A DNA stretch of 64,000 nucleotides from Tubiluchus corallicola (taxonomy: Eukaryota; Animalia; Priapulida), in contig JAQGDQ010000254.1 of the NCBI GenBank assembly GCA_030141605.1, positions 260,213 through 324,212 on the forward strand. Reading direction: 5' to 3'. The translations under genes were made by a program, and so were the position numbers. Under the pieces are notes generated by a model. The model saw only the letters and a program-made list of their open reading frames with translations. It made no database searches and was not told the origin of the DNA. The first letter of the stretch is position 1. Every line of letters begins with the position of its first letter. Shown piece by piece: positions 20,933-45,057 of this stretch.

Positions 20933-23900
20933 TCAATCAAGGGTTTGAAATTCCCATTCTCGAGACTTAGGTTTAGTGTGATTACAGGTTTTAATTTCCA
21001 AATGTCTCGATGATGCTTCATTCAGACACTTTTTCGTAGCGCTGTGAACAATTGTACCACTCTGGATTAAAAAAAACAAGTTGTAGTAAACCCGTGAATA
21101 ATACAGACATATAAAAAAGGAAGAGAGAAAGAGACGAGGAGGAGAAAGAGATGCGTAGAGCATGGAAAAGAACAAGTGAGAAAAAGCAGACAAAGGGAAC
21201 AGGCACTTAATCACTTACTTTGTAAAATGTCCATGTTTGACTGCCCTTATCAGGGTTACATGCGGACAACCTCACAGCAGTACCATTATTTCCAAAAACA
21301 TCAAAGCAAAAAATCCGTTTGTAGCGAATTTCCCCAACTCTATTAATAGTGAACATCTGAAATTAACAAATCACTGGCATGAAAAGTGATCCAGTTTTAG
21401 CTGGCAAACGTAGAGCGATATTTCATGTCTGGCGGTTTGAAATGTACGAGAAATCAGTCTACCATCACTAGCCTCATTGTCTCATTTCACGTACTGTCAA
21501 ACCTCTTTATACCACCCGTCTTGGGATGGGAAAAAACTTGTCGTTGCAGCGAGTTTGGTGTTATAACAAGATGTGTTAAATTTTGACATTTACAAATCAC
21601 AAAACATTCAGGTAAGTGTTCACATGTCAGTGTCCTCAGTTATCACTCTAAATGTTAATGAAGTAAAAAAATTATTAATTTAATCATTTACGAATGAATG
21701 ATTCTCTCAAAATCAATCATTTTTATCAATAACATTTTGTTTACATAAACGTGTAAGTCATAACTATAAATTTCTTGCTGTAATTTGTTTGGATGATTCT
21801 TAGAAAACAACGTGTTTTCTTGTCAGTTGCTATTATGACTGCATGGCGTATTGATAATAATATCAGAGTATCAATCCTTTACTATTGTGATGTATGATGT
21901 ACAGTACAGTTTGTAAACAATCAAAACTTGTTAATATGCATTGTTTTACATGACACGTGACGTTTGATCAGTGTAATCAGTGATTTGACCAAGCAGAGAG
22001 TGTAGCAGTCTTGCACAGCTGGCATAATATCAAGGTCATATTTCCACATTGAACATATATATGAATTTGCCCTGCAGATGGCGTGTAATGGGTGGCGGTA
22101 TAACAGGCTATTTTTGTGTGCAGTTGAATACAGTCGTTTTGTTCTTGGCCATTTTGCATGTGATAAACAAGGTTTGACTGTACTACAAGATCTTTTGGTA
22201 CCCTACTCTCTACTTGTTTTACCGCTTCAAGAATATTTGCAACTTACCTGCATTTCACTGCTTGACTGACATTCATAAACACCAAGAGGTTCTTGTTTTC
22301 CTATATCTCTCATTAATGTGTCAATACAGTTATGGGAAGCCTTGTTAACAATCTACAAAAGCAAAGCTGCATTGATGCAATCTAGCCGCAAGCAAAACTG
22401 AGTTTCAAAATAGACAGAAATAGCAAAAAAATGAATAAGCAGTAATTAAGACGATAACAATAATGGTAATAATCGCAATGATGGTGATAATAATCACGAA
22501 GGTTTAAATCTCTGATAAGGTTGGGAAACTGCAGCAGTAAATTCAAGATACAGCTTTGACACCTCTTCTACGTTAAATGTAAGCTTTCTGCTAAAGCCAA
22601 GTATACATCAAGAGGAATGAATCAGTTGACTGTCTTTTTTTATAAAATATCATGCTTGTTTAATTGTTACATATCTACTAATTGTACACTTTGTCTTTCA
22701 TGTACTGTATTTGTATTATCTCTGTACAGTTTTACTGTATGTCAAAAGGTTGTAAAATAAATATGTTTAAACTAAGTTATGCACCAGCCAGTATAAAACC
22801 AAAGCCTTCTCTGCTTTGCTCATCCAGTTAGCTGGACCCATGATAGTTAAACTCTGTTTCATCCTTATATTTTGACACTATGTTTTTTATACATCACTTT
22901 AATGCTTTGTAAATGAAAATCAGGAAACTTACACTGACTGGCCTCCATATCTGCTGGTATGAAACCAATCTAGGCAGTCTGTCTTTGTTGTTGAGGTACA
23001 TTACAGTTCATTAGTGTCAGAAGAGGTAGGTAGGCATAAGCTTGTGTTCGTTTTCAACTGTGCATTTTGCAAGTGTTAAGCCGAAGTACATTGTTTTTAG
23101 TCACTATTTCATGGGTGTGATCGATTTCTTTGATCAGCGCTAGCCAGTTATGGTGTGATAGATATGATGTAACAATGTTGGTTTTATGACAACACAATGG
23201 CAATCAAAAATTTGTGACATACTGGTTGTTCTTTAGTTCAGCATGCTATGCGTACAGGCTAAAGTTACTTTTCGAATACAGCTAGTCTCTCAATTTGCTC
23301 TACTTATTGTTAACTCGCTGCAGTATATGACCCGGATTTTGCATTAACTGGATCCGGCTCACAATGGCTAGATTGTGAGTCTAGCTTTTCTGTTCTACTT
23401 GCTTGTGTTACTATTTTTCCACTATGCTTTCTTTAACAGACTTATTTTAAACATTTATGCTGATTAATACATTTCTGTATACTGTCTAAGCTGTAACTGC
23501 ATTTTTTAATTTACCCCAACTTAGTCATTCTGAGGTCAGAATGCTTTTGTGAGGGAATAGTGCACTGAACACCTCTTTTGATGTATGTGCAAGTTTCTTC
23601 TATTGACGCCAAGTTACGCACCTAGCCAGTATGAAAGCAGCTTTCTTTGTTTTTTTACAGGTCCAGTCAATGTAACCCTTGACAGTTAAATAAACTGTTT
23701 CACTGTTGTATTATGATGCTTTGTGTATGTGCCTTGCTTAATAACGATACCATTTTCTTATACATCATTCTATTGTTTTGTGAATGTAAATCAGGGTCAT
23801 TCTAGACTTAGCCCATCTGTATTTGCTGGTACTAAACCAACTGACCTGGGCAGTCTGCCTTTGTCGGTGAGGTAGTGACTGCAGTTGGATGTTAACCATA

Positions 23901-26900
23901 TTTTTACTTCTCTGTACTACTTTTAAATGTGTATATATAAAAAGGCATATTTTTGTGAGGAAAAACAAACTGGTGCCATTGTTTAATGAAATTACGAAAC
24001 CAGGACTTAAAACAGAAAGCGATTGTGAAATTTTGTTAGTATTATAGATTTCAGGTCTTAGGAAACTTATTTAACTGCTCAGAAGTCAACAACATTTAGC
24101 TGTACACACCCACACCCACCCGCACGCATGCACGCACGCGCACACACACACACACACACATATATACGTCTTTTCTTATTGAAATAAACAGCCAGAATCA
24201 CCACACCAGATTTTGACTTGCAGGCTCTTACTAAAAGCTGGATTCTGGCTTGCAGTGCACCATATAGTACTATTAAAAGCTGAATTCTTGCTTGCAGCAC
24301 ACCTCTTAAAAGCTGGATCCTAGCTTGCAGTGCACTACATAGTACCATTAAAAGCTGGATTCTGACTTGCAGTGTGCCTGTTATAAGCTAGATTTTGGTT
24401 AGCAGTGCACCTGTTAAAAGTTGGATTCAGGCTTGAAGTGCAAAGCACACTACCCTGTTAAAAGCTGGATTCTGCCTTGAAATGCGCCATAGAATATTCT
24501 CGATTCTCCATAGTACAATACGGATTTAGTATCAGCAATAGAGCTGGGAAATCCGAGCTTTAGCAAGATTGTTGTGGGAATAGTGTTTTTTCAAAAGTCT
24601 ACGTATGTTGGTATTGTGCTAGACCTTTATGCTATATCAAAAAATTATTATAATAAAATATCAAACCTTTTTCTTTTCCTTGTTAAAATGTTTTACTTTT
24701 ACTTTGCCAAAACAATAATTCTTAATGACAAGAACAGTAACAATAAATTTTAAAAATCACACAATTAAAAAACAAGGAAAAAGAAAGGAAAAATGACACA
24801 ACTGAAGCTACATGTGTCTTTTCTCTCTTTTTTTATTGTTTTTAATTGTGGAATTGTTGTATTCACTTTTTTACCTTTCCATGAATCTCATCCATTTCTT
24901 CCAGCAGTGGTTGCTGAGGGAAAATTTTATCAAGGTACCAATGGAAGTATTGACAGCGCAGCTTCTGTTTCAGAGTTTTTCTAGTATATATTTCACCTGA
25001 TTTTATATCCTGAAAAAATATTATGCTGATAATGTATAGATGGATATATGTTCTTGCTTTCTCTGCTCTTAAGAGTGTTAAATAGTCCAAACTTAGTAAA
25101 AAGATTTATTCCTTTTTTCAAACTTCAGCGGACTAACAAATCCTTGAAAATGGACTATTAGATATGTGCAGAATAACCTTGTGTCACTATATACTATTAA
25201 TTTTTTGTTTTTCCTGTTCGATAATTTCAAGGACGAGAAAGCTATTAGGAAAAGGTGAAGGTAAAATTAGGTGACCTCAGTGTGCAGATTAACCTATGAA
25301 GAAAAGGGTAAAGTGAAATTTAAAGCTTATTTAAACTTTTATGATACTTCAGAATAAAATAAGCATAGTGCTGCTTTAGAAACTGCTTTATAAAACAGTT
25401 ATGCGGCGATATTACACCAGAATAAGCTTAAAATAGCCCACCCGACGGACAACCAGCAAGCCAAGTTACATAAGCAGGAGCCTTAAACCATTTTCTTAAA
25501 CTATTTTTGAAAAAGAAAGTTGTCGTGTCCAGTCGAAATTCATAGTGAAACGTTTCCACTGAACCCGCACTTATGACACTCCACAAAAAGGAATTTTCAC
25601 TGACTGTTTACAAGAGCGAGACTCTTTACTAAGTTAGAAAGAGTGAAAAATTTGTTTAAACACTACAAGAAAGGATTTAGACCTGATAAGCTCTGTCAAA
25701 TGTGGGATCTGTGGGATTTCATTGCACTATAAGTATTTTGTTGAAAAAGAAAAATTACTGGAACCAGATTTAAATTGGTGAAATACCTTTAAACTCTTCG
25801 AGTATTCATCATGCTTGTACATCAGATGTTTAAAATTTACAATCCACCTTTCAGCCAAACGTAGAGAATCGGTTTCCGTGGCCTTTTTGTCAAACACGTA
25901 TAGTTGTGATTCGTGGGTGACATGGCCCACATGTGAGCATGGGATGAATTTAAAAGTACCACCACACATCCAAAGCTACAAAAAATCAACTCCTAGTTTA
26001 AATGTGTATCCCTTTCAACAAATGTCTAACCGGCACTAAGGCAATGAAAAAGCAAGCAATCTAAAGGCAGCTGTTCGGAAATTTATTTACAATGCATTCT
26101 ATAATAAGAAATAGCTATCATCAAGGCATTGAATTATCATTAACCACAAGCACCAAGCTTGATAGTCCATAAACCCGGATTCAGGCACTCACTGGGCAAA
26201 CACAGACCTACTAACAGTAGTGTATCAGCAATACTAAAATTTAAAATTCCAAATTTTAAAAATTACATTGCGCTAATGGATTCTATTTGGATTGCTCTAT
26301 TCACATCCCACCAAAGGGATGCACCACCACGAGAAAGATAACTCAGCCTCCAATTTAAAATAGCACAATGTCAAACTGCTATTGTGCAGGATTTTTAAAT
26401 TTTAGCTGAATTTTAAATTGTGGTGCCATCTGCTGGTATGTACATCAACAATGAAAAATAGGTCACTGTAATAGGTGGGCGAGTCAGCACCTGGCTTTTG
26501 TTCAAATAAAATCATAATAATTTTAAGACTTGAGGAATACTTTATTTTCAAAAATATGTAATAAACATATAATCAATACTATCCAATGGATCAGAATTCT
26601 ACAAGGGGCACAATTATGAATGACCAACAGAGGCTCAGTTGAGTTTGCACCCAGCCACCACATCCATAACTTCACTCCATCATGCCCTTCAACACCCACC
26701 TAGGCAGAAACATGATCCATGCATGCTTAGCTGACGTACACTTATACGACAGCATGACAGTCACAAAAAATTGAGGCACCACGCTTCAACATGTATCTGC
26801 TACGCGAATCAACATCATATGTATTGGTTTGAAATCAACTAAACAGTGCAAGTGATAATGCAAAAACGTAACCATACATTAAGGTTAAAAACGTGCAGTT

Positions 26901-29900
26901 AACTTGAGGATGCGGTCCTCCAACCTGATGATCAAAAAATGGAGGAAAGACAAACGAAGTCAATCACTCCTCAAAAAAGAGGGTGAGCACCTCAGAGTCA
27001 CTCAAGCCGATGTCACAGAATGCAGTTTGACGACTATGCGCGAATTTTTTTGCAGGGTTGTTTTTGTTGTTGTTGCTGCTGATGTTGTTTTTTCCGTTGT
27101 TACTGTTGCCATCACTGTCATCATTGGAAGCAGGGGTAGCAAAGGAGTGTGGGGTGAAATGTAGACAGTGTGGTGCCGCATTGTGGTGTGGTGTGACATC
27201 ATGTAATGCAGTGTGATGTGTTGGGTGTAGTGTGGATGTGCAGGGATGAAAATGACAAATTGCAAAAAATCCTGAAACAGCCCGGGGGGTTTGGGGCCAC
27301 CTAGGCCCCCAATGGGGTTGAAATGGCAATTTTGTGACCATAGAGAGTTTCTAAGTGGACTTAAAATATCAATTACCTTGTTTCATGCATAATTTAAAAT
27401 ACCCAACTATCAAGGATATATGATAGCTAATTGTCTCAAAAAGTACTAGCTGCTCCTATGCAAAAGTATATAAAAACTGTCTGCAATTGACTCAAATAAC
27501 TCCGCACAATTGATTCTATATTTTTATACACAGAGATATACACGTGGGTACACTGATAAACGTGTGTAAACAAAGTGACGGCCTGCCAACTAGCGGTCAG
27601 CTTGTGAAATAATGTACTGGGTCCGTAAAAATTTTGTCAACGAATTTACGCGATTTACAAAAATCACACTACTGGTCTTCCAAAAACTCGGAATTCCGCG
27701 TATCCGCGGAAAATTCTCATCCCAATTCCCATCAAATGGATGTGATGTGGATGTAATGCGATGGTATGGTATGGTGTGGGTTGCTTGGTGTCACTTGCTT
27801 GTGGTTGCAGTTATGGTTTTATGCACAGTTTTTTACAGCGTTTGTCTTGTTATATTAGTATTTTTACATTTGTAAGAACTATACTGTAAAATATAACTTT
27901 GAAATTTAATTCAACGGTTTGTGTGATATCAGCAGAATTTCAACTTGTACACTTGCAGACAAATGAGCCCAAAGTACTCCAACTACTCTGATAGCAAAAG
28001 CTAATTACTGATCAAATAATGTAGGAACAATAACAAAATTTGAAGAACATCTTGACGTTTTGGTTTTATGTAATAATCAGATGGTGCTTTAACAATTGTT
28101 CCTGCATGAGACTGTAGTGCAGTATGACAAAGTACAAATTAAATGATGCCATTCATATCATCCAGTGGTAAAAATGCAAAGCACTGTTCATAAGCACTGA
28201 TAAACAATTTGATAATGGATCATGAGAATGTTTGCATCATGTGGTGCCACAAAGCTATTAAAGGCACAGTACCTTGATTTTGTTTTGTACCTGTGAGCAC
28301 ATTTGCATAAAAATGTATTGGTAATTTGCAGAACAAATTCTAAACTTTTCCAGAATGTTTCACTTTAGCCACATCATTTTGATTTGGAAATACAATTTTT
28401 TTTGTTTAAATGTTAACGGAAAAATCAATTTCATATTGTTGATTTCGATTCACTAAGGAAACAAGCCAGTTTTAACTTAGAAAATACTCATACAGTACTA
28501 ACCCTAAATGATAGCTCAAGGTCGTCATTAGTGTGGTCTTCTATATGAGAAAGAGTAATTTCCCAGAAGCGTCTCCGACTGATTGCAAAAACACCTTCTG
28601 AATCTGAAGGTGACCTAGTAATAATTAACACACATACTTCATCAACGAAGAAACGACGACTTACAAAGTTACACAACACTGCAATAAAATAGCTGCACAA
28701 CAATTAAAAACAGTTAGCAATCCGACTGGGCATTAGTACAGAAATTATAAGAACAGAAAATTTTGAAATAATCCACATAGTCGATTGTCACAAATTGTCA
28801 CAAAGATAAACATATGATGAAGACAATGTTATTAATTGAGCAATTTGAAACTATAACTTTACCTAGCATGCTAAAATCAAAATAAAATATATGCAGCATT
28901 AATTGGATCATTTGTGAAGAAACAACATTTGAAAATTAGGAAAACTTAAAAATTGGGAAAACCAGAAAGTAAAAAGTGCCAGCTGGAGTGCACCTACTGT
29001 GCAAAATTACAAAAAAATGTATCCTGCTTAACCACTTTCTATGCAAATCAAATTTCAACTAATGACAATTCATTAATTACCAATATAGATGTTACCAGTA
29101 ACTACTTACAACTTGTCAAAATTCTGTTTTTGGACTAAATGAGGCCTCCAAGATACATGTTCACGCCACGTAAATTTGCCAAAAGGCTCCGGACCACGCT
29201 GATGATATCCCAATGTGAAATAATCAATTCCATCAATCCATGGCACAGCAATATTATTTGGTTCATACTTTACTCTCTGAAGTAAGGGTTTCAACCTAAA
29301 AACAATTCGGAAAATCGGGAGTCATAATGAAATTAATGGCAATTCAGAAAATTTGATACATTTGCTCATTGTGATCAACTGAAAATCAAACTTGCTGACT
29401 TTCTAGCAGAGAAAGAACTTGAAGTCATTCCAATAATATTAACGCAACTCTCCCCAGTCAGCTGGGCTGGCTACTAAAATGAATGAAAGAATAAAGTTAT
29501 TTCATCAACATAAGCAGCAGTGGTACAGCTACTAGGGGAGCAATATCTCCTCCGAGCACATTTTTAAAACTGGCTCCTTTTCAACAATAGAGACATTACA
29601 TTATTTGACCAAACTGCCTCCTGTATTTTTGAAATGAGCGTGCATTTAAGCACTCATTTGTCAAAATTGACTGATTGAACCAAGGATCAAATTTACCCAA
29701 ACCTTATTATTATAATATATTCTAGTCACACAAATGTACCAATGATGGTGCAGCACCTGAAAAAGCTGATCGCGGGTAAAAACAGGAATTTTTGAATATA
29801 AAATTTGTATTTAGGCAATCATGAAGCATATTGCTTCAAAATTCTTGATGAAATTAATTTAACAAGTCACAGCAAATGTTCTGAACATGTTGTTTTACAG

Positions 29901-31823
29901 TTTTGTGTCCCTTTAAATTTTTTCGGCCCAAACAATAAAACTTGAGAAGTCTATTTGATCATGTTCATTTTGATAATCAGTACAATTTGCTTGAATAAAT
30001 AAATTTGTCACCACTGATGTCCAGCTTCACAGTGTGATTCTAGAAAAACAAGAACATCTCCAGTCGCAGCTTCTGCGCCCGCACTACGTGCTCCCGCAAT
30101 CCCTCGACGCCATTTTAAGTGAATTACACGAACATTGCGAAAATGGCTCGTCACATAGCGGTCTAGTTTTTCACCCATTTCCTCTGAAATCAACTGCAGT
30201 GCATATTTTCTACGACTCTTCTTTTAGGAGTAATTCACAGTAGTTTTCATATCAAATTAGGCATAAAACCCTGGTACCAAATACACTGTTTCATATTGAG
30301 AACATTCTCTTCCTTTAGGGGTAATTCACAGTAATTTTTATATCAAATTAGCCAGGAAACCCTGGTACCAAATACACTGTTTCACAGTGAGAAGGTAATA
30401 TTCTAACGTGATGTTGCCAAAGAATGGTCATACACTTGGTAATGATAATTATATGTACATATACACTATCAATGAAGAAGCCACAGACCCGCACATTATA
30501 AATTTAAAATCTTTGATATAAACTATGTATTACAACCAAGTATTTTATGCCATTTGAAATGTGCTTTGTGTTAAAAGAAAAATGAAAAGCAGTTTAATTA
30601 AACCTAATTCCAATTACTCTAATTTCAGAAAACAAGCCTACTAAATATGTTCTACTAGAATTACTATCTTTCCAGAAGTTTCAGTGCTTCTCTTTACAAC
30701 ATCTTTTATTGATTAAGTAAAAATTTGAATTAGTCGCTGTAATTATAGTAATTATATAAAGTTTAAAAAATTGAGGTTTTTACCTTTATCACTTAAATCA
30801 TCTACTAACAATATCTCTCTCAGCAAAAGAGCAGGTGAACGTTTAACAACAGTCCATAGTGTTCTCATTAATGTGGACCATTCTTCATTATGGAACGGAA
30901 TTATAACACTAGCCGTCGGTAGATCAGTGTCATACTCTATTTGTGCACATCTAAGGTAAAAATAAACAATGTGATGAACTTAGACAACCTGGAATTACTA
31001 ACTTAATAGAATTTGCCAATTAAGTTTTAATAATTATAATTATAAAGAAAATCTTAGCCTCCAAAACTAGGCATGAATTTAAGTATAAAAAGAAATGAGA
31101 AAACCAAACGAAGCAATAAGTATAGCTGTGAAATGCCTGCCTCAGCAAATTACAACAGAAATAAAAACAAAACAGACCTATTATAGATATTAAAGCTGCA
31201 AGCTAAAAATAATCACAGAAAAGTGATATAATAAGTTGCAAACTGACAAAAAGTAAGAATAGACTGATACATTGTTGGTGTTCTCTCAGACTTTGGTAAA
31301 AAAAATTAATATAACTGTCTACTGCACAATAAGTTTCTTCTAAAATTAAGAGAATGAAGTTATGTTTTTTTAGGAACTATACTGTCAGCTAATCAAAATA
31401 TGTTTGATCATTGATTTTAGAAGACACTGTGGATTTATATCATCACAGAACAAAGTTTAATATCAATATTAATAATCGTTACCTTGGATCACGATTATCC
31501 GGGATAGATCGAACGTAGGAAATATTGTTGCTGACATAAACATTTAACATCTGTCTCCTGATTAACTTTAACTTGGACAATTCATCGTCCCTATGCAAAT
31601 ACACTGGTTCACCATTTTCACCAACACGGTGTGGTGGTCCATCCACTGATTTCAAAACCTCGACATGATTGCCTGCACTTTTGGGGTTAACCATGGAAAC
31701 ATCAACATATGGCCAGTATCTGATTGCAAAACTGAACAGCACAGCATACATGCAGGCTAGAAGAATACAGGCTCTTCCAACAAGCACCCAATCCTTACTA
31801 AACTGCAGACTTTTTGCAGACAT
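20933..31823 (-). CDS. Gene C: divergent GALNT-like protein, closest paralog of B, probably catalytically inactive, 10 coding exons, about 557 aa, intact frame
   Basis: Exons (GT-AG, 1674 nt): 31483-31823, 30784-30950, 30012-30183, 29110-29295, 28503-28614, 25787-25975, 24875-25009, 22248-22352, 21219-21356, 20933-21061. First in-frame ATG is MSAKSL at 31823 (the ORF-track start at 31868 is TTG). Contains [31 protein letters not shown] and CSHVGHVTH. Confidence 0.9.
21494..22180. mobile_element. Tc1/pogo-type MITE in gene C intron 8, same family as 6976-7800, inverted
   Basis: TA-CTGTCAAACC...GGTTTGACTG-TA; internal sequence is the diverged reverse complement of 6976-7800; empty site visible in gene B near 37700. 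Confidence 0.85.
22780..23895 (+). repeat. Pair of diverged ~250-bp direct repeats (about 22780-23030 and 23620-23895), possibly LTR/TRIM remnant, in gene C intron 7
   Basis: Shared blocks AGCCAGTAT.AAA, AGTTAAA...CTGTTTCA, TGCTGGTA..AAACCAA, GGCAGTCTG.CTTTGT.G.TGAGGTA. Confidence 0.5.
24103..24490. repeat. (CA)n/(CACG)n microsatellite followed by a minisatellite with core TTAAAAGCTGGATTCTGGCTTGCAGTGCAC (about 7-8 imperfect units of 30-42 bp)
   Basis: Repeat units directly visible from about 24230 to 24490; explains the LQARIQLL repeat ORF 24079-24348. Confidence 0.9.
30215..30390. repeat. Local tandem duplication, two ~87-bp units, in gene C intron 2
   Basis: TAATTCACAGTA.TTTT.ATATCAAATTAG...AAACCCTGGTACCAAATACACTGTTTCA occurs twice. 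Confidence 0.85.
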
Positions 31824-32789
31824 AATCTGCTCTTCCCTCAACAGGTATGGCAGTAGGTTAATGTACAACTTGTATCAGCTAAAGCAAATATAAGAACTGC
31901 CTCAAATAAAAGTACTTAAGATCAAAATTCTGCTTTTCGTAATACACTGTATTTAAAAAATAATATGTTACATAATGGAGAAGCAAATACATTGTAATTC
32001 GATAAGAAATAAAAAAATTATAATCTACTCCTCAAAGGAGAAAACACTTTCTTACCTTGCATTTCAAATGATCTTATAATCAGATGGATACACCAGGTCT
32101 ACCCCGATAATAATCCATCTTTTTCTGATGTTATCTTTTTTCAACTTCCCATTCCATCGTAATAACTTTCTGAAAATCAAGCCTAACAAATTTACAACCA
32201 ATATGCTTTACTTCTTTCCAACTGTATTTACTAATTATAGTAATAATTATTGCTATGCTATGCAGGCAAACATTGAATTTTAGAAGTTGGTTCATGATAA
32301 AAACAGCAACTGCTTGTTTTATTTAGATAAAAATAAAAAAAATTAGCAGTAAATTCTGGCTTATACATTGAAACCCTGGTGTAAAAGCCCCACTGTTTTG
32401 ATTCTAAGGCACAGCTGACAGTAACAACTCATGTGGCAGGTGACAGTAGGTGTCACAGGAGTGTGTTTTGAAGGCTACGATATACATCTTCGAGTGTCAG
32501 ATGACGCTTGTAGCTGAAGCTGGCAATTTTGTAAAGAAAGGCATGAGTTAAATGTACGTTTAAGTAAACACCAATGATTGTCATTTATAATAAAAAAGAA
32601 AAACAACTGGGAAACAGAATATTTTGGAAAAGTGAGGTCTATAAAATAGGGTCGTAATGTAAATTCAATAAGAACAAAAGATAAACAAAAGTGAGCAATT
32701 GGTTACAATTAGATTATATTAGACTATCAAGCTTATCAATCTTGTATGTTCATGCTTTTGTAGTTTATCGACCGTTGCTTTAAGAGAAT

Positions 32790-33170: not shown

Positions 33171-33699
33171 GCACTTCAGAGCTGCATTCGTTAGAAAAAA
33201 TTGACTTTTTTACTTAAATTTGTCACCAATTGGAGACATAATACTTTAAAATAAAATTTAGATCAAGATGGTTGCTTAGAATATCAAACTTCATCGAATT
33301 TTTTATAGGTATGATTATAACTGACCTACAATGCATGCATATGCAAAAAACCTAATACCATATCCAAAGAAATAAGGACCTAGATGGTAACTATCTGTAA
33401 ACGGTCTTCTCTCAAATACATTTTGAAACTATTGAATTATGAAGCACTGATGATTTATGATAAAAGATGACTTCACGGCTGAAATACGCGATGCCCAAAG
33501 GTGTGTGATCTGATGTTACCGTGGATACACACAATCCTCTTCACCAAAACGGCAAGCAAACTGACATCAATAAAAAGTGCCAGTTTGCAAGATCAAAAAA
33601 CACATATTTTGTTCACTTTGTACTTGCATAAATTTCTCCTTTTCCACCAATCAACAATAATTACTGTTACTGTTTTTCGTCTTTCATTACAGTTTTAGC

Positions 33700-34950
33700 T
33701 GCGAGAGCTCTGTGACATACAATGAAACTTTTCTTAATTTATCTACATGGTATCACTAATATCTTGCACAGATATTCTCCATTTATTAATATATATTGAC
33801 CTACATTCAAACATATGTTCTGTAATATCATCTGGAAAATGACAATGAACATTTCAAATCTTCTTTAAACGAGTTTTTAAAATTTGCTTTTACCTTATAG
33901 TCATAATTTCTTTCATCTCCCCTAAACAGCATTTTAACACATAGCCTTGCTTTTGAAAACTGTTGTTTTTTAGAGATCTTAATTTTTTTATGTTCTCTGC
34001 TTTAATTTTAATTTCATTTTTGATAAACAAATTAATTCATTTTTTACGTACTTCTTCCATTTAGACTTTTTGACTTAATTTATATTAACTACATTTAGGT
34101 CAATTTTGTATTTCAGAATATCAATTTTATAATATCATTTTTTTATATTCAATTCTACATAACAGAAGCCCTGTCTGCGTTTCAGCTAGCATGCCCCAAT
34201 ATGGCGTACTGTTTTTTCAGCACAAAATTTTTGCTAACATCTCTCTGAATATTCTCAAACATACCTACTTTTCTTTGAGTGAGGTTAGTCCAAGTCTCAC
34301 TATTATTTGTTAAAAATGGAACAACCATATTTTCGCATAACATTAAATGTGCTTCTGTTACAGAAGAACCTACTTTTGTTTTACTACCAATAGCCAACAC
34401 CTCAGATATTACAAATTTCATTTTCTCTCTCCTTTTTTCAAACATCAGATGATATTTATTTTTAGTGTTAAGCCAGTCTCCCCGATATTTATATTCGTTT
34501 GTTTTTTTATTTGTCCATTTTTTACATTCAGTACTAACTGTTTTGTATTTTTTATCATATTACTAGTATTAGTCACCATATACTGTCTTTTTAAATTAAA
34601 TGACAGCATTTTTTAGTTTCTATTTCTATAAAATTCTCGACAGCTTTGCTTAACGTTTTCGGGCTGCCAGCAGAAAAAAACGTCGTCTACATATAACAGT
34701 GTACCTACATATTGCTGTTGATGTTCCTTCTAGCTGGTTGCACAAATAACTTAGACTCATGACCACGAAGAACTCTATGAGGCCCGGAAAAGTCTGTCTC
34801 TGTCAGAACAGTATTTCTACTAATTATTCTGGAGCAGTTCACATTCTGGTCTACAGTTTCACGCCTTTGCTCCAGAATAAAATTCGAAGTGGGATCCAAA
34901 TCAATAGCAAGAAGATTATATCTATCCTGGGTCCTTTGAGAGCATTCTTG
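33700..34950 (-). mobile_element. Decayed non-LTR retrotransposon reverse transcriptase and C-terminal fragment
   Basis: TLLYVDDV at about 34680-34705, VVPFLTNNSETWT, and C-terminal CHFPDDITEHMFEC zinc-knuckle-like motif near 33800-33845; frameshifted. Edges approximate. Confidence 0.75.
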
Positions 34951-35825
34951 AAAGTAGCACTAATTAGTTCAGTAGTATTAATAAATTTACAAAAAAGTAA
35001 GAACATAATACTTACACGACAAGGAATTTTCTAATTTAATGCAGCTTCTTCGTCACACATGACACGTGCAATTCTAAGTTTGAAAATCGAAAAATTTATT
35101 AATAGGTAAGAGGATAGAACTTCGTTGGCATGTAAGCGCTTCCCAGCGACCAACTCGCCGAACTAAACGTAACAGCTAACATGAGCCAGACAATCAGCAT
35201 TCAGCAGATATACGACACAATCGAGTTCTCTACAAAACTCGACACAGCACTTTTGAACTCGTGTGTTAATTCACAGTAGGTAGAGTGTGCTTTGACCAAT
35301 GAGAACAGTTTCCTATCACTTCGTTTGTTTATTGTTGACGACTTGGCTAGATAATTGTTTTCACACCACTGAATATCGGAAAAGATACAAAAATAACACG
35401 ATAGACTGACAAATTATCACAACTAACTAGTTCGTCAAAATGGCAAAATACATTTAAGCCTAACTTGTCAAAAACAATAGTTGAATTTAGAGAACATTAT
35501 GTGTGGTTCTTTACGACGGCCCAGGTGTCTTGCTTTGTTTAATAAAGATTTCGTCTAATCATAGACGATTCTCTGCAATTTAAAGCACACGTAAATAACA
35601 AGTAATATTACTACGATGTGGTAATCAGTTGTTTAAACTCATCTGCAATAGCATTTAATTTCGATATGTACCTATAGCACAGGTATTAAATCTTATTTAG
35701 AGAAATACACATTCAAGTGTTGAAATCTTTGCTTTCTAAAAGACAAAAGCATTATATAGCATATTTAAGAGAGGGGTATTAAAAAGACCTCAGACCTACG
35801 CAAATGGCAGCGAGCCCTTATATTG

Positions 35826-35935
35826 CTCCTGCTATGTGTGTATTTTTCCTGCTGTTGTGAATACGAAGGGTTGTTACCAATCCTGCTATGTGTATATTGT
35901 TCCTACTGTTTTGAATACGAAGGATTGTTACCAAT
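35826..35935. repeat. Tandem duplication, two ~54-bp units
   Basis: TCCTGCTATGTGT.TATT.TTCCT.CTGTT.TGAATACGAAGG.TTGTTACCAA occurs twice. Confidence 0.85.
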
Positions 35936-36139
35936 GTTATGTAGCAAAAGCAAAAGCTTCTAGCAAGCTATAGTGATCAAATGAATAAAAAATGATCTGG
36001 ATCTTGCAAATGCTCATCAGTAATGATGAATGCTACATGTGAAGTGCCTCTTTGTTATAAAATTTAAAACTCATTCAGTGGTATTTAACAGTGACAGCAT
36101 CTGTAGGCAGATGTAAGTCCTAAATTTATGAGTTTACTG

Positions 36140-36710
36140 TTGAATCATGAAGATAAATCATAAGTTCCATCACTAATGATTAGTAGTACAGTACAGTATT
36201 ATTGCGGTACAAATATAAAAAAATACGTACATATTCAGTAATAAAATAATTATTATTAGCTTCATAAAGTTTAACAATAGCGATATATACATACTATAGA
36301 CAGTACCGGTCCTTTTCAGACTAGTTTGCGCACTAATTCCTTTACGTACTTTACCAAGCCAGTGGTTATTGCTTACCTCTAGCAAAATCTGTATATTTTG
36401 ATATTTTAATCACAGCGTGCAAAGGGTACTGTATACAGAGTACTGTAATAACAGTCTGACAGATTCAATAACAGTTTGAAATTTATCATACCAATGCAGT
36501 GTATAGATTTAGTGAATTAATGTAAAGTATAGAAATTTCAATTTTAGAAAAAACACTTACTAAAATTCCTGTATTAAAAACAAGTATTACTAAACCTGTG
36601 GGTTGTGAAGACATAAAAAGAAAGATAAAAGAGAACAAGGTAGGGGTGGAGAGGGAGAGAGAGATAAGGGAATGCAGGAGAGAGGGGGAGGAGGAGAGGG
36701 AGAGGGAGAA
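36140..36710 (-). repeat. Decayed duplicate of gene B intron-9 end, exon 10 remnant and 3' UTR
   Basis: 36142-36510 aligns by eye with 36712-37090, and 36568-36640 with 37225-37300 (CCTG.ATTAAAAA..AGTATTA.TAAACCTG...AAGACATAAAAA). Confidence 0.75.
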
Positions 36711-37102
36711 AGAATCATGCAGATAAATCATAAATTCCATCACTAAAGTTTAATAATACTGTACAATATTATTACACACAATTATAAAAAACATATGTAC
36801 ATATTCAATAATAAAGTAATTATATTAATTTTATAAAGTCTAACATAGCCAATAATAATTATTACAACAAAACTGAGTAAAATTGGTCGCAATACGTATG
36901 CACTATACACAGTAACATCCTTTTCAGACTAGTTTGCACGCTAATAATTCCTACATATACATTTCAACAAGCCAGTTGTTATTACTTATACATATCCTCT
37001 TAATCAGAAAGTACAAAATGCCAATAGAACACAGTAACTACAATAACAGTCTGAAATTTAATTATGCCAATAAAATTTATCGATTTAGTGAAGCACGGGA
37101 AT

Positions 37103-40100
37103 TCATGCAACACTTTGAAAGTCCCATTCTTGAGACTTAGTGCGATTGCACGTTTTTATGTCCAAATGTCCGTGAGAGTTATCATTTAGACACTTTTTGG
37201 TAGAGCTATGAACAATGGTACCATCCTGAATTAAAAAAACGAGTATTAGTAAACCTGCAAATTATAAAGACATAAAAAAACAAAAAAGAAAGACACAAAA
37301 GAGAAAATGGGAGAAAGAGAGAGAGAGAGAGATACCAAACACGAAAGACAGGAAAAATGAAAAAGTGGGAATCCTGTCTTTCAAGTTTGGTAGGAAAATT
37401 TAATGAATGAATTGTGGGGTTGTACAAGTATCAATACTCTTCATATTAAGATTAAAATAATTAGTATAGTTACTTACTTGGTTAAATGACCAGGCTTGAC
37501 TACCCTTATCAAATTTACATTCGGCCAACCTCACAGTAGTGTCATTCTTTCCAAAGACATCAAAACAAAAATCTCTTCCGAAGCGAATTTCCCCATTGGT
37601 GCTAATAGTGAATACCTGAAATTTGTAAATCACTGGCATGAAAAATAAAATTTGTTATGTAAGAAAAATTGCGACCACTGTTAGTTGCATTGTTTCACTC
37701 TACATGCTACAAGATCTTTTGGTATTATGCCCTGTAGTTTTATCAGTATAGTATAATACAGTTATAACGAGACTCTGGTAATTCTAAGTGAAACGTTAGG
37801 CTCAGCACTTAGAAGCAATGCATTAAAAATATGGTTATGTCTAATGATTATGGAAGAATGTTCTTTAACTGTTTCTACATCTTTTGGGAAATGTGCTAAA
37901 CATATAAACTTTATACCACTTTGTAGATTTTTTCAAGCCCCACACTTCCCATTAGATTTATTTATAATGTTAATTGTCATCTGTGTACAATAGTCTAAAC
38001 TAAAGTATAAGCAAAAAATCTAATTTGTGAAATCTGTCTGCACTGCAGTGAAATTCACAGCACATGGATTTGAAGTTTCAATTAATTTCTTTGCTGCATT
38101 GAAACACCTAACATACTCAAAATCGAAAAAAAAATAAAAAGCAGTATGTGCATTATGCAGAAGTTGAGTACTAGCTATACTTTTCTATAGTAAACAAGAA
38201 ATGACTTTATTGGGCATAATGCAAAATATAACGCTAGACTCTTTACTCATATTATTGCAACACGGAAAATCCTTTCACCTTATTTGTTCGTTCAGTGATT
38301 AGTTCATTCAATGATTTTACAATGTGACTCACATCAGCTACAATGATATACAGTTACAGGCGTTGTCAGACACACTTCTGCATTTACTTAGGATGGGATA
38401 TGCCATCTGACAGCTTTTCAACCAAGACAATAAGTACAGCACATGCTGTCAGATAGCTTTTAAGTGTTAAATAATGTATTTAAATCTTGCTTACCACGAG
38501 CTTTTTATTATCCCTGCATACAATGAGTACACGTTTTAGTAACACACAATCAAATCATGTAGCACAGCAAAACAAATTATTGACATTTATAATAACCGAT
38601 AAAGTCAATGTTAATATGGTATCAGTGAGCATTATGATCAGATGACCAATATATGGTATCCAGAGGTGATGTGACAGAGATAAGCACGGAGGCGAAACAG
38701 CCAAAATAGTCTCATTTAAAATGCTGTTTTTGGTTAGATAGGTAAAACAGGTTTAAGAGTGCTACAGCAAATGTGACAAGTAATCTGATTACAAGATTAA
38801 GTAAAGTACATGTAACTGCATAATACCAGCATTACTCGTCACAGCCTAATCTGTCTACGTTATTGCCTTCAATTCTACGTTTAAAGAATTGAATTTCACT
38901 ATAAAGAGACTTGATTAAGCGACAAATTCTGATTATCCCCTGAACCCATTACAAGCAGATTACTCTGTACGATGATATTTATATATTACTGGCAAGAACA
39001 GCTAGTTACAAGTATTTACAACTTACCTGCATTTCACTGTTAGACTGACAACCGTAAAAACCAAGAGGTTCGTGTTTTCGTGAATCTCTCATTAATGTGT
39101 CAATACAGTTATGGGAAGCCTTGTTAACAAACTGTAAAAGCAAAGCTGCATTGATGCTAGCCATAAGCTAAACTGAGTTTCAAAATAGACAAAAATAGCA
39201 AAAAATGAAAGCTAATTTAATAGTTAAGACGATAATAATAATAGTAATAACTGCAATGATTATGATGATGATAATCACAAAGTATTAGGTAAAGTTGAGA
39301 AACTGTAACAGCAAATTGAGGATCAGGTTTAATAGTAACAGCATTACTATTTCACTGTGTATTACTTTGAAATGTTAAATTTTAATTTTGTTCAACTGCA
39401 GAATACATGTAACATATGAAAAAAGAATATTTTTGCGTGGTAAAACAAAGCAGTACCAATGTTCAAGGAGAAATCAAGGCTTAAAACAAACTGATGCCGA
39501 AATGTTGCCAGCATTGTTGATTTCAGTCTTAGATGTTGACTTATTTAACTGCTCAAGAGACCGCATCTCCGTACAAATTTTGATTTTGATTAAATCTGCA
39601 CACTAATTCTGAATGACAAAAAAAGTGACAATCAATTACAAAGTCTCACAATTAAAAACAGTGAAAAGAAAGAAAAAATGACACCAATGTATTTTGAAAA
39701 CGTCATGTTCTTTCTTTCTTTTTTCTTATTTTTAACTTTTTTAATTCGTTGTTTTACCTTTCCACGTTTCTCAACAGTTTCTTCCAGCAGAGACTCTTGA
39801 GGAAAAATTTTGTCGAGGTACCAGTGGAAATATTCACAGTGCAGCTTCTGTTTTAGGGTTTTTCTGGTATATATTTCACCAAGTCGTATATCCTGCAAGA
39901 AAAGGATTGCACAGACAGTGTCAAGCCGTACATTACATTTAGTTTTTCTCTAATCTTGAGAATGCAAAATGATACTTTCTTAGTTATACTATTCATTACG
40001 TTTTCCAAACTTCAAGACTACTAGATGTATGCAAAGTAAGAATGAGTCACTACTTTCTATTAAATTTTCATATTTTATTCTATAATTGCCAGTTGAAAGA

Positions 40101-43100
40101 TGAGAAATTTTTTAGGAAGGGCTACAAAGTGAAAAATTAAGCGAACTCAGTGTCCAAAATAATTTATGAAGGAAAACATAAAGTAATATTTAAGCCTATT
40201 TAAACTTTTATGACAGTTTAGAATAAGATAGATATGCATAGTGCTGCATTGGAAATCTACTTTATAAAGCAGTTGTGCTACTATTTCACACTAGAAAACG
40301 AGCAAAATAGCCTGCCCGACCAATAAGTCCACCACTTAGACAACCAGTAAGTCCACCAGGTTAAAGAAGCAGAAGCCTTAAACTATTTATGAAAAAAAAC
40401 TATTATATTTCATGGAACATCATTGTGCAACTTTTTCACTAAACCGGCACACACGGAACTCAACAAAAAGGACTTTTCACAGACTGTTTACGATCACCAG
40501 CTGCAGTACTTTGCAGGTGTATGCAAAGATTCAAAAACCACTGTTAAATTATACTATTGCCTAAACACTCAAATGATTTCCATCTGATAAATTCTGTCAA
40601 ATTTCAGTGCGATTCTTACTGCAGCTTACAATTTTAACATATAGTTGTTATAAAAAAAAGAAAATGGCTGCAGCTGAATTTCATTTAGTGCAATACCTTT
40701 AAGCTCTTCGAGTATTCATCATGGTTGTATATCAGACGTTTAAAATCCGCAATCCACCTTTCAGCCAAACGCAGAGATTCGGTTTCCGTGTCCTTTTTAG
40801 CAAACAGGTGCGATTGTGATTTGCGGAAGATATACCCCATACGTGAGCATGGAATGAATTCAATAGTCCCACCACACACCCAAAGCTACAAAGAAAATCA
40901 ACTTCTTGCACATAAATTAAACGTTTCCCTCAAAGAACATATTTTCTCATTTACTGAAAATATATATGTTCACATACTAAATGAGCTAAGATACCTGTCA
41001 GTTCAGTATAAGCAGGGAATTATTTTTGCTGCTGATCAAAGTTGCAGTCTTGCCACAACCATCTGCATTAAGTACAGTATAAGTCCTCGCTTAACGACTA
41101 CCCATTTAACAATGTTTCCTTTTTACAACCCTGAACTTTGACACCTTTTTCTCACTTAAAGATAAAGGTTTCATTTCTACGACAATTTTTTACTTTCTCA
41201 GAGTCATTTTTTATTTTATCAACAATTTTTTACCTAATTTGAAGCATGAAAGCAGAGTATATACCGTTATTCTATTCTAAAAATGCACTGGAGTTTTTTA
41301 GTAATGTAGAACAATACAATATTATTTACATCTTTGCTTCTTGACTGACCGCTAAATGCTAAAGCTGTTTGTGTCATCGGAGATCTATCTGCAATTAACT
41401 ACACATGTATGTTACAATGACATGTGAACATTTTATCAACTATAGAATTTCATCTAATCATGGGAAAGCAACGAATTATCGTGGTCTCACTGCCAGCTAA
41501 CAGCTTAGCTGAGCAATACCATGGTGATTTGAGTTAAGTGGTAGGCTTCGCTTACAAAGTGCAAGCGCAAAAAACAAGATATGGTGCTTTAAGGCTAAAA
41601 AATCGTCATTAAAAGTGAAAAAAGGTATAAAAAAGCTAGGGTCGTAAAAACGAAATGTTGCAAAGTAGGGTATTGTTAAACGACAACTTACTGTACTTCT
41701 TTCCGGCACACCATTATGAGACTCAGGTGCATTGTGCTACTCAGTCATTTAAGAAATAAGCAAGATTGTAAAACAGTACTAACCCTAAATGATAGCTCGA
41801 GATTGTCATTATCTTCTCCATGAATTTCCTGGAAACGTTTCCGACTGATTGCAAAAACACCTTCTGAATCTGAGGGTGACCTAATAATCACATTAACACA
41901 CGTACACATATTTCATCAACAAGAAACAATGACCTACAAATTAATATAATTTAAGACTTACAACAACACTACAAGAACGGTGAACATTTTATGAAAAGAA
42001 CTGCATAATTAGAAACAGTGAAGCAATATAGAAACAGTCAATCATAAGTAACTATGAAGGGCTGTTTTTGTTTTTGATAGATATACTGATGACAAAGGTA
42101 TCATGTGACTCATTCGAAAATGCACATTTTCTTTGCGTGTTAAAAATATACAGCATTAACTAGATCATTTATCAACAAAACAGCACCTTAAAAGCAGGAA
42201 AAAAATTAATCTGGAAAATCAGAAATAAAATTGTCAGCTGGATGAAAAATTATGAAAAATTTATATGCTACTACTTACCTGCTAGATTAATTAAATCTCA
42301 AATATAAGAATTCTCAGTTTCCATCTAAGACTTTCTCCTTAGAAAATACTTACAGCTTATAGTTTTCTACATGCGCCCTATGAGAATCCTGTTTGTAAAC
42401 TAAATCTGGTCTCCAGGGTAAATGTTCACGCCATGTAAAGTTGTCCAAAGATTCTGGACCATGTTGGCGGTAACCCAGCGTGTTATAATCAATTGCATCA
42501 ATGCAGGGCACAGCAATATCATTTGGTTCGTCCTTTACTCTCTGAAGCAAGGGTTTCAACCTAAAGGAAAATTTGTTTCATTTGCTTATTGAGCCAAATC
42601 TGTCAGTGAAACTTGCTGGCTTTAGCAGAAGAAAAAAACTTGATGTCATTCCACAAGACACAAATTCACTCTGTAGTCTCTGCTCAGTCAGTAACATCAA
42701 GCCAAAAAATAAAAGACTACTAAAATTAATGAAAGTGATATCATCAACAAAAGAAGAGGCGGTGGAATAACTTGATAAGTAAACGGCCAAGGATTATGAT
42801 TCCTAACACAGCCTATATTGCATTGAATCTTACGAATTTCTCTATTGTTATAAATTTCCAGTTATAACAATGAGATTTCTAGGGTATATGATACAAATAA
42901 CAACAAAGTAAACTGGAAACATTAGAAAAAGTACTGTATTTAGATAAATAATGACGCTCAAGATATTATCTTTACTAGCAGAAACGAACTTGAAAATATG
43001 CTTGAGTACAAGCCTTGAGAATCTACTTAACCATGGTTCTTTTTGTTCATTGAACAATTTGCTTGAATAAGTAGCTTAATTTGCTCACCACTGATGTCCA

Positions 43101-45057
43101 GCTTCACAGTGTGATTCTAAAAAAATTAGAACCTCTCCAGTAGCAGCTTCTGCTCCCACGTTGCGTGCTCCCGCAATCCCCCGATGCCATTTTGAATGGA
43201 TTACACGAACATTACGAAAATGGCTTGTCACGTAGTGGTCTAGTTTTTCATGCAGTTCCTCTGAAATCAGTCAGAGAACATTCATCTCTGTGACTTTTCT
43301 CAAGACTAAGTTTAGGTAATAATAATTCAAGATTTACTATAGTAATCAATTAATAAGTGTCACTGAACATGGCGATGCGATAAACATACAACACAGCGTA
43401 AAACCTGATACAGAAAAATATTTTGTATCTTTCACATCACATATGCCAGAAACAGAACTCAAATGTATTGTGTCTGCCTACTGCATCAGTATTGTTATGC
43501 TTTTAAAGTTACTAATATCAAAAACAAATGTAACCTGTCTTTTTTGTCTAAACATATTTATATTTTATCATAACTTTTGGTATATAGTTATACATAACTG
43601 ATTAATAATACCCAGGCTGTAATGAAAAAGAAATGCATGTTACAAAATATGATGCACGACTATTAAGTTCAGTAATGAGTTAAATAAATATTGATCAATG
43701 TAATTTATTTAATGTAACTTGTCCTGTTTGAAGGTATTAAAAAATTCATTGATCGGTTGTACAATAATGAAAATATTGATTAAGATACAGCTATTTGTTT
43801 ACGCAAATAATACTGCATCCAAAATTAAATTCTCCTGGTAAAAGAACAATATGCATCAAATTGAGCGTATTTCCTTGGGATAGTTAGTGAACATAGTTTC
43901 ACAGTAAAAATCTTACACAGATTACTTTCAAACTTAAAAGTGACATTCGAAGATTGCCAGTCACAAGGATAAACGAACCATGTATCATGTTACTGCAAAA
44001 TCTAATGTCTTTGTCTTACATTATTTTATACATCGAACATTTTAAGCCATTCGAAATGTGTTCAGCATTAAAATGAAAAATGAAAACAAGTGCAATTAAA
44101 CCCAACACTAAATGCTCTGATGTCAAAAAACCTGTTGCATATTGCCTACTGTATTTTCCAATAGTTTTAAATTTTCTGTTTATATCATCTGAATTAGTAT
44201 GTTAGTGCTACTATGCTAGCAAGTTAATAATTACATTAAATTAAAAAGAAACAAGTGCTGTGACTGTTACCTTTATCACTTAAATCATCTACTAGCAATA
44301 TCTCTCTTAGCAAATGGGCAGGTGAACGTTTCACAACAGTCCACAGTGTTCTCATTAGTGTAGACCACTCTTCATTATGGAACGGAATTATAACACTAGC
44401 CTTTGGTAGATCGGCATCATACTTTATCTTTGCACATCTAAGGTTATAAAGATAAAAATAAGACGAAACTAGTTCATTTGCTTAGAAACGGTCAATTAAT
44501 AATAATTATATTGGAGGAATTCTTTATTCATGTCTCTAAGACTTTGCACGAAAAAGAATTTTTAATAAAACTGCATCAATTATGCATTAACAAGTTGCTT
44601 TATTAAAACTAAATACAAATATAAATTAAAATCCATTTGACAATTATATCTAAAAAAATAATTAATTGGATTTATGCCATCACTGAACTGAGTTTAATAT
44701 GACTCACCTTGGATCACGATTATCCGGAATAGAACGACTGTAGGAAATTTTCTTGCTGACATAAACATTAAACATCTGTTTCTTGATTAACTTTAATTTA
44801 GGTAATTCCTCATCTCCATGCAAATGCACTGGTTCACCATTTTCACCAGCTCCAGCTGGTGGTCCATCCATTGATTTTAAAACTACAACATGTTCGGTTT
44901 GATTGCCTGCACTTCTGTTGTTAACCATGGGAACATCAATGTGTGACCAGTATTTCATTGCAAAACTGAACAGCACCGCATACATGCAAGCTAGAAGAAT
45001 ACAGGCTCTTCCAACAAGCACCCAATCCTGACTAAACAGTGTGTTTTTTGTAAACAT
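37103..45057 (-). CDS. Gene B: divergent GALNT-like protein, probably catalytically inactive, 10 coding exons, about 560 aa, intact frame
   Basis: Exons (GT-AG, 1683 nt): 44708-45057, 44271-44437, 43089-43260, 42354-42560, 41784-41880, 40697-40885, 39758-39892, 39027-39131, 37478-37615, 37103-37225. Same intron positions and phases as gene A. Contains [31 protein letters not shown] and CSRMGYIFR. Confidence 0.9.
41075..41693. mobile_element. pogo/Tigger-like MITE in gene B intron 5
   Basis: TA-CAGTATAAGTCCTCGCTTAACGA ... TTGTTAAACGACAACTTACTG-TA imperfect TIRs. Confidence 0.7.

What the first reader, a model, noticed from the sequence alone, without database searches (positions are those of the whole stretch)
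20933..45057. Genes B and C look like selectively maintained pseudo-glycosyltransferases
Seen: exon 5 changes from SPTMxGGL...[14 protein letters not shown] to SPSDSEGVF...HGEDNDNLE (B, 21 nt shorter) and ...[14 protein letters not shown] (C, 6 nt shorter). DxH is ESH in both. The distal Mn His is Tyr in B (MGYIFR), and C keeps the His but loses the following Arg (VGHVTH). Yet all exon length differences are multiples of 3, there are no premature stops over about 560 codons each, all 18 introns are GT-AG, and the TM anchor and lectin cysteines remain. Known: vertebrate GALNT18 and GALNTL5 are low- or no-activity family members with proposed non-catalytic roles. Inference: an independent origin of dead or re-purposed GalNAc-Ts acting as chaperones, scaffolds or regulators.
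Basis: partly seen in the sequence, partly recalled or inferred. Interest (0 to 1): 0.8.

Follow-up and report, generated by a model that had tools for sequence, protein, structure and literature searches.

The report
Two intact but disarmed GalNAc-transferase copies
In a row of four related genes for the enzyme that starts mucin-type sugar chains, two copies keep unbroken, selection-constrained reading frames but have lost most of the residues that hold the sugar donor, so they likely no longer catalyse the reaction and would instead act as non-enzymatic helper proteins, a role already proposed for a few vertebrate relatives.

Summary
Observation confirmed. B (560 aa) and C (557 aa) are intact 10-exon GT27 genes in a tandem array A-B-C-D. 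Of ten donor- or metal-facing residues B keeps 4 and C 3; A keeps 9 and D 10. B-versus-C dN/dS is 0.35 (95% 0.27-0.46). Neutral decay would give about 20 stops and many frameshifts; none are seen. The four genes form one clade with a long B/C stem, so the loss is independent of vertebrate GalNAc-T18 and GALNTL5. The best lectin sugar site of A is eroded in B/C. Constraint on B/C is weaker than on A/D, and neutrality of B alone is not rejected. No B transcript was seen, C was not tested, and no close orthologue was found. A chaperone, scaffold or regulator role is inferred by analogy only. The scan had not reported this on other DNA. Verdict: new member of a known kind (pseudo-glycosyltransferase); modest interest.

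The parts
37103..45057 (-). Gene B, 10 exons, 560 aa: 45057-44708, 44437-44271, 43260-43089, 42560-42354, 41880-41784, 40885-40697, 39892-39758, 39131-39027, 37615-37478, 37225-37103
   Evidence: Open frame, 9 of 9 GT-AG introns; PF00535 and PF00652 matches by exon
20933..31823 (-). Gene C, 10 exons, 557 aa: 31823-31483, 30950-30784, 30183-30012, 29295-29110, 28614-28503, 25975-25787, 25009-24875, 22352-22248, 21356-21219, 21061-20933
   Evidence: Open frame, 9 of 9 GT-AG introns, 75.6% identical to B
41784..41880 (-). B exon 5: G308 equivalent is Glu; WGGE Trp and Gly lost with a net 7-codon deletion; E334 equivalent aligns as Asp (register ambiguous)
   Evidence: numbering from the A exon 5 match to GalNAc-T2 304-341; B exon 5 has no PDB match at E<=10
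28503..28614 (-). C exon 5: same SDSEG G-loop; WGGEN replaced by HTNDD; net 2-codon deletion
   Evidence: no PF02709 match at E<=0.5, whereas A and D match
43115..43117 (-). B: Glu codon at the DxH Asp (D224 of GalNAc-T2)
30038..30040 (-). C: Glu codon at the DxH Asp
40832..40834 (-). B: Tyr codon at the distal Mn-binding His (H359)
25913..25924 (-). C: His359 kept, F361 is Thr, R362 is His
49701..63230 (-). Gene A, 10 exons, 577 aa; keeps WGGENLE and GHIFR, has EAH at DxH, near-canonical lectin beta site; spliced in RNA run X2
5145..14765 (-). Gene D: exons 1-7 (14765-7911) with all ten catalytic residues, GC donor at intron 5, divergent exon 8 (5252-5145) lacking the lectin alpha-site Asp; exons 9-10 not found in the window

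Best explanation
B and C are tandem duplicates of an invertebrate polypeptide GalNAc-transferase that keep intact, selection-constrained reading frames but have lost most donor- and metal-binding residues, so they are likely folded, catalytically dead membrane proteins that would serve as non-enzymatic partners (folding helper or regulator) of active GalNAc-transferases or their client glycoproteins. Shown: intact gene structure, residue losses, dN/dS below 1, and local origin from the A/D lineage. Inferred: the active site was remodelled once on the B/C stem (G-loop SDSEG, WGGE Trp/Gly, Asn of NxxR, Asp of WMD). After B and C split, each lost a different closing-loop residue (H359 in B, R362 and F361 in C), as expected if that site no longer works. 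The N-terminal Rossmann half (exons 2-3) stays most constrained, which fits selection on fold or on a binding surface. Untested: translation, localisation, absence of activity and the partner. My odds: kept by selection as protein about 0.9; no canonical UDP-GalNAc transfer about 0.8; partner-of-active-GalNAc-T role specifically about 0.4.
For: Ligand-facing residues kept: B 4 of 10, C 3 of 10, against 59 of 77 and 58 of 77 for other conserved catalytic-domain columns; A 9 of 10, D 10 of 10. Of 81 database homologues covering all ten sites, 70 keep all ten and none loses six or more. H359 is His in 173 of 174 and W331 Trp in 91 of 100 covering homologues. Roles of D224, H226, H359, W331 and the R362 loop: PMC4432651 passages. 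WGGE binds UDP beta-phosphate and its Glu is critical: PMC6789641 passages. Y-subfamily enzymes with YGGE fail on classical substrates: PMC5288242 passages. dN/dS 0.35 overall, 0.26 for the catalytic domain, 0.15 for exons 2-3, 0.70 for exon 6. Stop and frameshift controls. B and C carry 3-7 times more unique amino-acid changes than A with each of five outgroups, p<1e-8. Precedents: GalNAc-T18 (PMC9587226 passages) and COSMC (PMC7185993 passages).
Against: No direct evidence for any partner or helper role. RNA run X2 has spliced contigs for A and none on B exons 1-6; that run is small, from a divergent strain, and absence is not evidence. Constraint on the B/C tips is about half that on A/D. 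Forcing omega=1 on B alone is not rejected (p 0.07 whole, 0.88 catalytic); for C it is (p 0.025 and 0.031). GT-A folds can compensate for loss of the C-terminal His with water and tolerate core changes. A is conserved and spliced despite Glu at DxH, so motif reading alone can mislead. No orthologue of B/C was found elsewhere, so long-term conservation across species is unknown.
Confidence: 0.55

Rival explanations
1. B and C are re-purposed enzymes: the rebuilt acidic G-loop (SDSEG) and helix start bind a different donor or acceptor, or hydrolyse a nucleotide sugar.
For: [13 protein letters not shown] is identical in B and C. Residues on the nucleotide side (FHNE, VDD, R208 equivalent, H226) are kept. 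GT-A enzymes lose the C-His or DxD and stay active (PMC7185993 passages). A divergent Toxoplasma GalNAc-T uses a novel Glu and a second Mn site (PMC11074326 passages), though it keeps Asp-His-His.
Against: B and C differ at the metal and closing-loop residues (Tyr/Arg versus His/His) and have different indels in the WGGE loop. Exon 6 has dN/dS 0.70, so no shared new site is visible there. The identical 13 codons differ at only one synonymous site, so their identity is weak evidence of selection.
Confidence: 0.18
2. B and C act as carbohydrate- or glycopeptide-binding proteins through the trefoil or the emptied catalytic cleft, in the secretory pathway or at the cell surface, like GALNTL5.
For: Lectin exons are intact with six Cys and match PF00652. 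The alpha-site Asp and Tyr are kept. GALNTL5 has no transferase activity in vitro yet binds GalNAc (PMC12443989 abstract and passages).
Against: The beta site, near-canonical in A (Asp, Phe, His, Asn), keeps only the Asp in B and C. The alpha site has Gln and Met where GalNAc-T2 has His474 and Asn479. Lectin exons are less constrained (dN/dS 0.50, 95% 0.28-0.91).
Confidence: 0.15
3. One or both copies are redundant genes now decaying; the low dN/dS records past selection and inactivating changes have not yet arrived.
For: Omega is higher than on A/D, and neutrality of B alone is not rejected. Post-split losses continue in exons 5, 6 and 9.
Against: Most active-site loss is shared by B and C, so it predates their split, and the frames then survived dS of about 0.38 in total. 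From (19.5 stops per 0.38 substitutions/site), a copy neutral for more than about 0.06 substitutions/site would have under 5% chance of being stop-free, before counting frameshifts. Splice sites are intact.
Confidence: 0.12

Closest known systems
Polypeptide GalNAc-transferases (CAZy GT27), invertebrate clade with proteins named GalNAc-T 1 in Drosophila grimshawi (P0011) and Panulirus (P0053), and tardigrade RvY_12618 (P0005)
   Same: Type II anchor, GT-A domain, ricin-type trefoil; B is 42% and A 53% identical to P0005; one clade with SH-aLRT 100
   Different: B and C lack WGGE Trp/Gly, G308, D224 and either H359 or R362; 70 of 81 full-coverage homologues keep all ten sites
Vertebrate GalNAc-T18 and the Y subfamily
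   Same: Full domain layout; no proven in-vitro activity; proposed chaperone-like effect on GalNAc-T2 and T10 (PMC9587226 and PMC5288242 passages)
   Different: The Y subfamily alters WGGE to YGGE; B/C erase the motif and a metal or loop ligand. Separate origin: B/C nest with A and D (no vertebrate sequence was in the tree)
GALNTL5
   Same: GT27 protein without transferase activity in vitro that has a non-catalytic job (PMC12443989)
   Different: GALNTL5 lacks the lectin domain; B/C keep it. GalNAc binding is untested for B/C
COSMC (C1GALT1C1, GT31)
   Same: Duplicate of an active GT-A enzyme that lost DxD and xED motifs and chaperones its paralogue (PMC7185993 passages)
   Different: Different family; its client and mechanism are shown, whereas none is shown for B/C

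Membership tests
GT27 family (homology) | N-terminal type II transmembrane anchor | tested here: met
   Hydrophobic segment 13-31 in B and C; hydropathy only
GT27 family (homology) | GT-A catalytic domain homologous to solved GalNAc-Ts | tested here: met
   B exons 3 and 6 match GalNAc-T structures at E 1e-9; PF00535 in B and C exons 2-3
GT27 family (homology) | C-terminal ricin-type beta-trefoil with six Cys | tested here: met
   PF00652 on exons 8-9 of B and C, single exons below the curated cut-off; Cys kept
Active polypeptide GalNAc-transferase | Mn ligands Asp-x-His plus distal His | tested here: not met
   B: Glu, His, Tyr; C: Glu, His, His. A also has Glu
Active polypeptide GalNAc-transferase | Gal/GalNAc-T motif D-x5-WGGENxE | tested here: not met
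   Lost in B and C; a six-frame scan finds WGGEN only in A and D and no alternative exon 5
Active polypeptide GalNAc-transferase | Flexible loop with F361, R362, Y367 | tested here: not met
   B keeps F and R, Y is His; C has Thr and His, keeps Y
Active polypeptide GalNAc-transferase | UDP-GalNAc to Ser/Thr transfer | not testable with these tools
   needs an assay
Pseudo-glycosyltransferase (GalNAc-T18, GALNTL5, COSMC kind) | Intact frame under purifying selection with catalytic motifs lost | tested here: met
Pseudo-glycosyltransferase (GalNAc-T18, GALNTL5, COSMC kind) | Expressed | tested here: inconclusive
   Small RNA run X2 covers A, not B exons 1-6; C not examined
Pseudo-glycosyltransferase (GalNAc-T18, GALNTL5, COSMC kind) | No activity in vitro and a shown non-catalytic role | not testable with these tools
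   needs assays
Vertebrate Y subfamily (orthology) | LD-x5-YGGENxE motif | tested here: not met
   Absent in B and C; nearest relatives are A and D

The most novel reading that the evidence does not exclude
The array has split one enzyme's jobs among paralogues. D keeps a perfect catalytic site but has a degenerate, apparently truncated lectin domain; B and C keep the trefoil but have no working catalytic site; A carries an unusual Glu-x-His metal site. B and C would then be obligate non-catalytic subunits that recruit substrate to, or tune, D and A in trans, making a heteromeric GalNAc-transferase not found described in my ten literature searches.
Probability: 0.1. Interest if true: 0.72.

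Novelty: new member of a known kind. Interest (0 to 1): 0.38.

Why it matters
It would be an independent invertebrate origin of non-catalytic GalNAc-transferases, with far deeper active-site erosion than vertebrate GalNAc-T18 and with the lectin domain kept. The active-looking sister genes sit next door, so the array is a natural series for testing what the GalNAc-T scaffold does without catalysis and whether Glu can replace the DxH Asp. The concept is already established, and the case is so far limited to one genome.

Tried and rejected
No whole genome is held, so other family members and D's 3' end could not be searched. Search with B exon 6: 0 of 5 candidates passed. A B/C exon 6 profile over 1.84 billion representatives gave 1549 hits at E<=0.001, best 73.8 bits, with no close B/C orthologue among the 150 listed. 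A exon 4 found relatives of at most 58% identity. Run search listed 2 runs and no RNA holder of B. X2 had no depth on B exons 1-6; this is not evidence of silence. A divergent X1 contig on B exon 2 looked like a third copy, but 10 of its 11 differences match gene C, so it was rejected. An alternative WGGE-bearing exon 5 inside B or C was sought and not found. Three apparent non-3n gaps within exons in the blastn alignment are taken as alignment artefacts, since the frames are open. A burst of positive selection on the B/C stem is not supported: stem omega is 0.11-0.25 with saturated dS. The order of A, D and B/C splits is unresolved. The careful tree did not finish; the quick tree was used, built from 45 of 182 homologues. 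The idea that C's Asp at the N335 position mimics the base of inverting GT7 enzymes rests on recall; a paper search found nothing, and it was dropped. Searches for DxH Asp-to-Glu mutagenesis found no usable paper. Recalled only, unverified: conservative changes at that Asp abolish GalNAc-T1 activity, and several Drosophila pgant genes are inactive; one search shows only that four have no characterising reference (ND). No structure or complex prediction was run, because the spliced proteins are not contiguous in the window. No supplements were read.
Full report
Gene structure. The window holds four tandem minus-strand polypeptide GalNAc-transferase genes, A (63230-49701), B (45057-37103), C (31823-20933) and D (from 14765). 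Exon models built from the sequence give open frames of 577, 560 and 557 aa for A, B and C with identical intron phases; all 18 introns of B and C are GT-AG. Identities are B-C 75.6%, A-B 50.4%, A-C 48.1%, A-D 63.7%. The model of A is backed by spliced contigs in run X2 (RNA by guess, a divergent strain) across the exon 3-4, 4-5 and 6-7 junctions. D has seven clear exons, a GC donor at intron 5 and a divergent exon 8 at 5252-5145 (best of 73 candidates, score 21 versus 8.5 for the next distinct one); exons 9-10 were not found in the window.

The observation. Numbering was fixed from matches of single exons to GalNAc-T2 chains. The ten-site set D224, H226, G308, G309, W331, G332, E334, H359, F361, R362 was taken from passages of PMC6994419, PMC4432651 and PMC6789641. 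Among 87 catalytic-domain columns conserved in at least 85% of 45 homologues, B keeps 4 of the 10 ligand-facing and 59 of the 77 other columns (Fisher p 0.024); C keeps 3 of 10 and 58 of 77 (p 0.007); A keeps 9 of 10 and 73 of 77; D keeps 10 of 10 and 73 of 77. Losses fall mainly in the C-terminal half of the domain (B 26 of 30 versus 37 of 57; C 26 of 30 versus 35 of 57). Of 81 database proteins covering all ten sites, 70 keep all, 7 lose one, 1 loses two, 1 loses three and 2 lose five through a missing exon-sized block, probably gene-model errors. The register of the B and C exon 5 loop is ambiguous, but the Trp is absent in any alignment.

One correction matters. The Asp-to-Glu change in DxH is shared by A, B and C (GAA codon), and only D has Asp. 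Among 71 covering homologues 70 have Asp. A has the lowest omega of the four (0.09 in the free-ratio fit) and is spliced, so this change alone does not mark a dead gene here. Whether A is active is untested.

Selection. Nei-Gojobori B versus C gives dS 0.38, dN 0.13, omega 0.35 (bootstrap 0.27-0.46). By region: exons 2-3 0.15, exons 4-6 0.36, exon 7 0.18, lectin 0.50, anchor and stem 0.53; exon 6 alone is 0.70. A codon ML fit gives 0.30 for the B and C tips against 0.15 for A and D (LRT p 0.001). Because the stem is saturated, dS cannot be split well between B and C: omega=1 is rejected for C (p 0.025) but not for B (p 0.07; catalytic domain 0.88). Frame survival is the stronger argument: 0 of 2000 neutral simulations were stop-free (mean 19.5), and non-coding DNA aligned between B and C has 28.7 non-3n indels per kb.

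Origin. In a quick IQ-TREE tree of 49 rows (45 of 182 homologues, those covering the catalytic domain), A-D form one group (SH-aLRT 100) inside an invertebrate clade with Drosophila, crustacean, annelid and tardigrade proteins. B+C have a stem of 0.87 against terminal branches of 0.11 (A), 0.51 (D), 0.12 (B) and 0.21 (C) (names). Relative-rate counts confirm faster protein change in B and C with each of five outgroups. As the closest relatives keep WGGE, the loss arose locally. No vertebrate sequence was in the tree. No close orthologue of B or C was found. One unnamed fragment, P0127, has independently or relatedly lost 6 of 8 covered sites and was not placed in a tree.

Lectin domain. GalNAc binding uses Asp458, Tyr471, His474 and Asn479 in GalNAc-T2, with equivalents in the beta site of T10. 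A has Asp, Phe, His, Asn in its beta repeat; B has Asp, Ala, Lys, Ser and C Asp, Ser, Asn, Ser. The alpha repeat of B and C keeps Asp and Tyr but has Gln and Met at the other two places; it is also non-canonical in A and most subfamily members. So the trefoil is kept while its best sugar site is eroded, which weakens a pure lectin role.

Mechanism. The most likely reading is a folded, catalytically dead type II membrane protein kept for a binding role, most plausibly as helper or regulator of active GalNAc-transferases or their clients. The steps from sequence to lost canonical chemistry are well grounded; the step to a helper role is analogy with GalNAc-T18 (PMC9587226 and PMC5288242, passages) and COSMC (PMC7185993, passages). 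Rivals are a re-purposed enzyme, a GALNTL5-like glycan binder (PMC12443989, abstract and passages) and recent decay. Expression of B is unshown and C was not examined.

Novelty. Non-catalytic GT27 members and pseudo-GT-A chaperones are known, so this is a new, independent member of a known kind. Ten paper searches listed no report of an invertebrate GalNAc-T pair with a deleted WGGE motif; that library lacks most subscription papers and no supplements were read. The scan's own notes show no earlier report of this locus or sequence but several similar dead-paralogue cases in other enzyme families (unchecked notes). Other papers seen as passages only: PMC9996832, PMC4682476, PMC11074326. Interest 0.38.

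Noticed in passing
window 58795-58797 (-), gene A exon 3: Gene A has Glu-Ala-His instead of Asp-x-His yet keeps every other catalytic residue, has the lowest omega of the array and is spliced in run X2; 70 of 71 covering homologues have Asp. A natural test of whether Glu can serve as the Mn ligand.
   Followed up: partly
window 5145-14765 (-), gene D: Catalytically perfect copy with a GC-AG intron 5, a divergent exon 8 lacking the lectin alpha Asp, and no exons 9-10 in the remaining 5.1 kb; may be lectin-less or continue beyond the window.
   Followed up: partly
protein P0127 (unnamed, ENA; 226 aa) and P0089: Other GalNAc-T fragments with degenerate G-loop and WGGE motifs (6 of 8 and 3 of 8 covered sites lost), possibly further independent pseudo-enzymes.
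   Followed up: no
window about 51984-53388 (-) and 2101-3236 (+): Broken reading-frame pieces that look like LINE reverse transcriptase (resemblance recalled, not tested), in A intron 8 and downstream of D exon 8.
   Followed up: no
window 7011-7802 and 21492-22178: An approximately 700-800 bp element present in opposite orientation in D intron 7 and C intron 8, 72-76% identical; probably a mobile element.
   Followed up: no
window 59041-59491 and 60559-61075: Long imperfect inverted repeat (69-74% identity) in A intron 2, like decayed terminal repeats of a DNA transposon.
   Followed up: no
window 24208-24488: Short degenerate tandem repeats in C intron 7.
   Followed up: no
window 43214, run X1: The one listed variant of B exon 3 in the DNA run is synonymous (Arg188); only 40 of 518 variant rows were shown.
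   Followed up: partly
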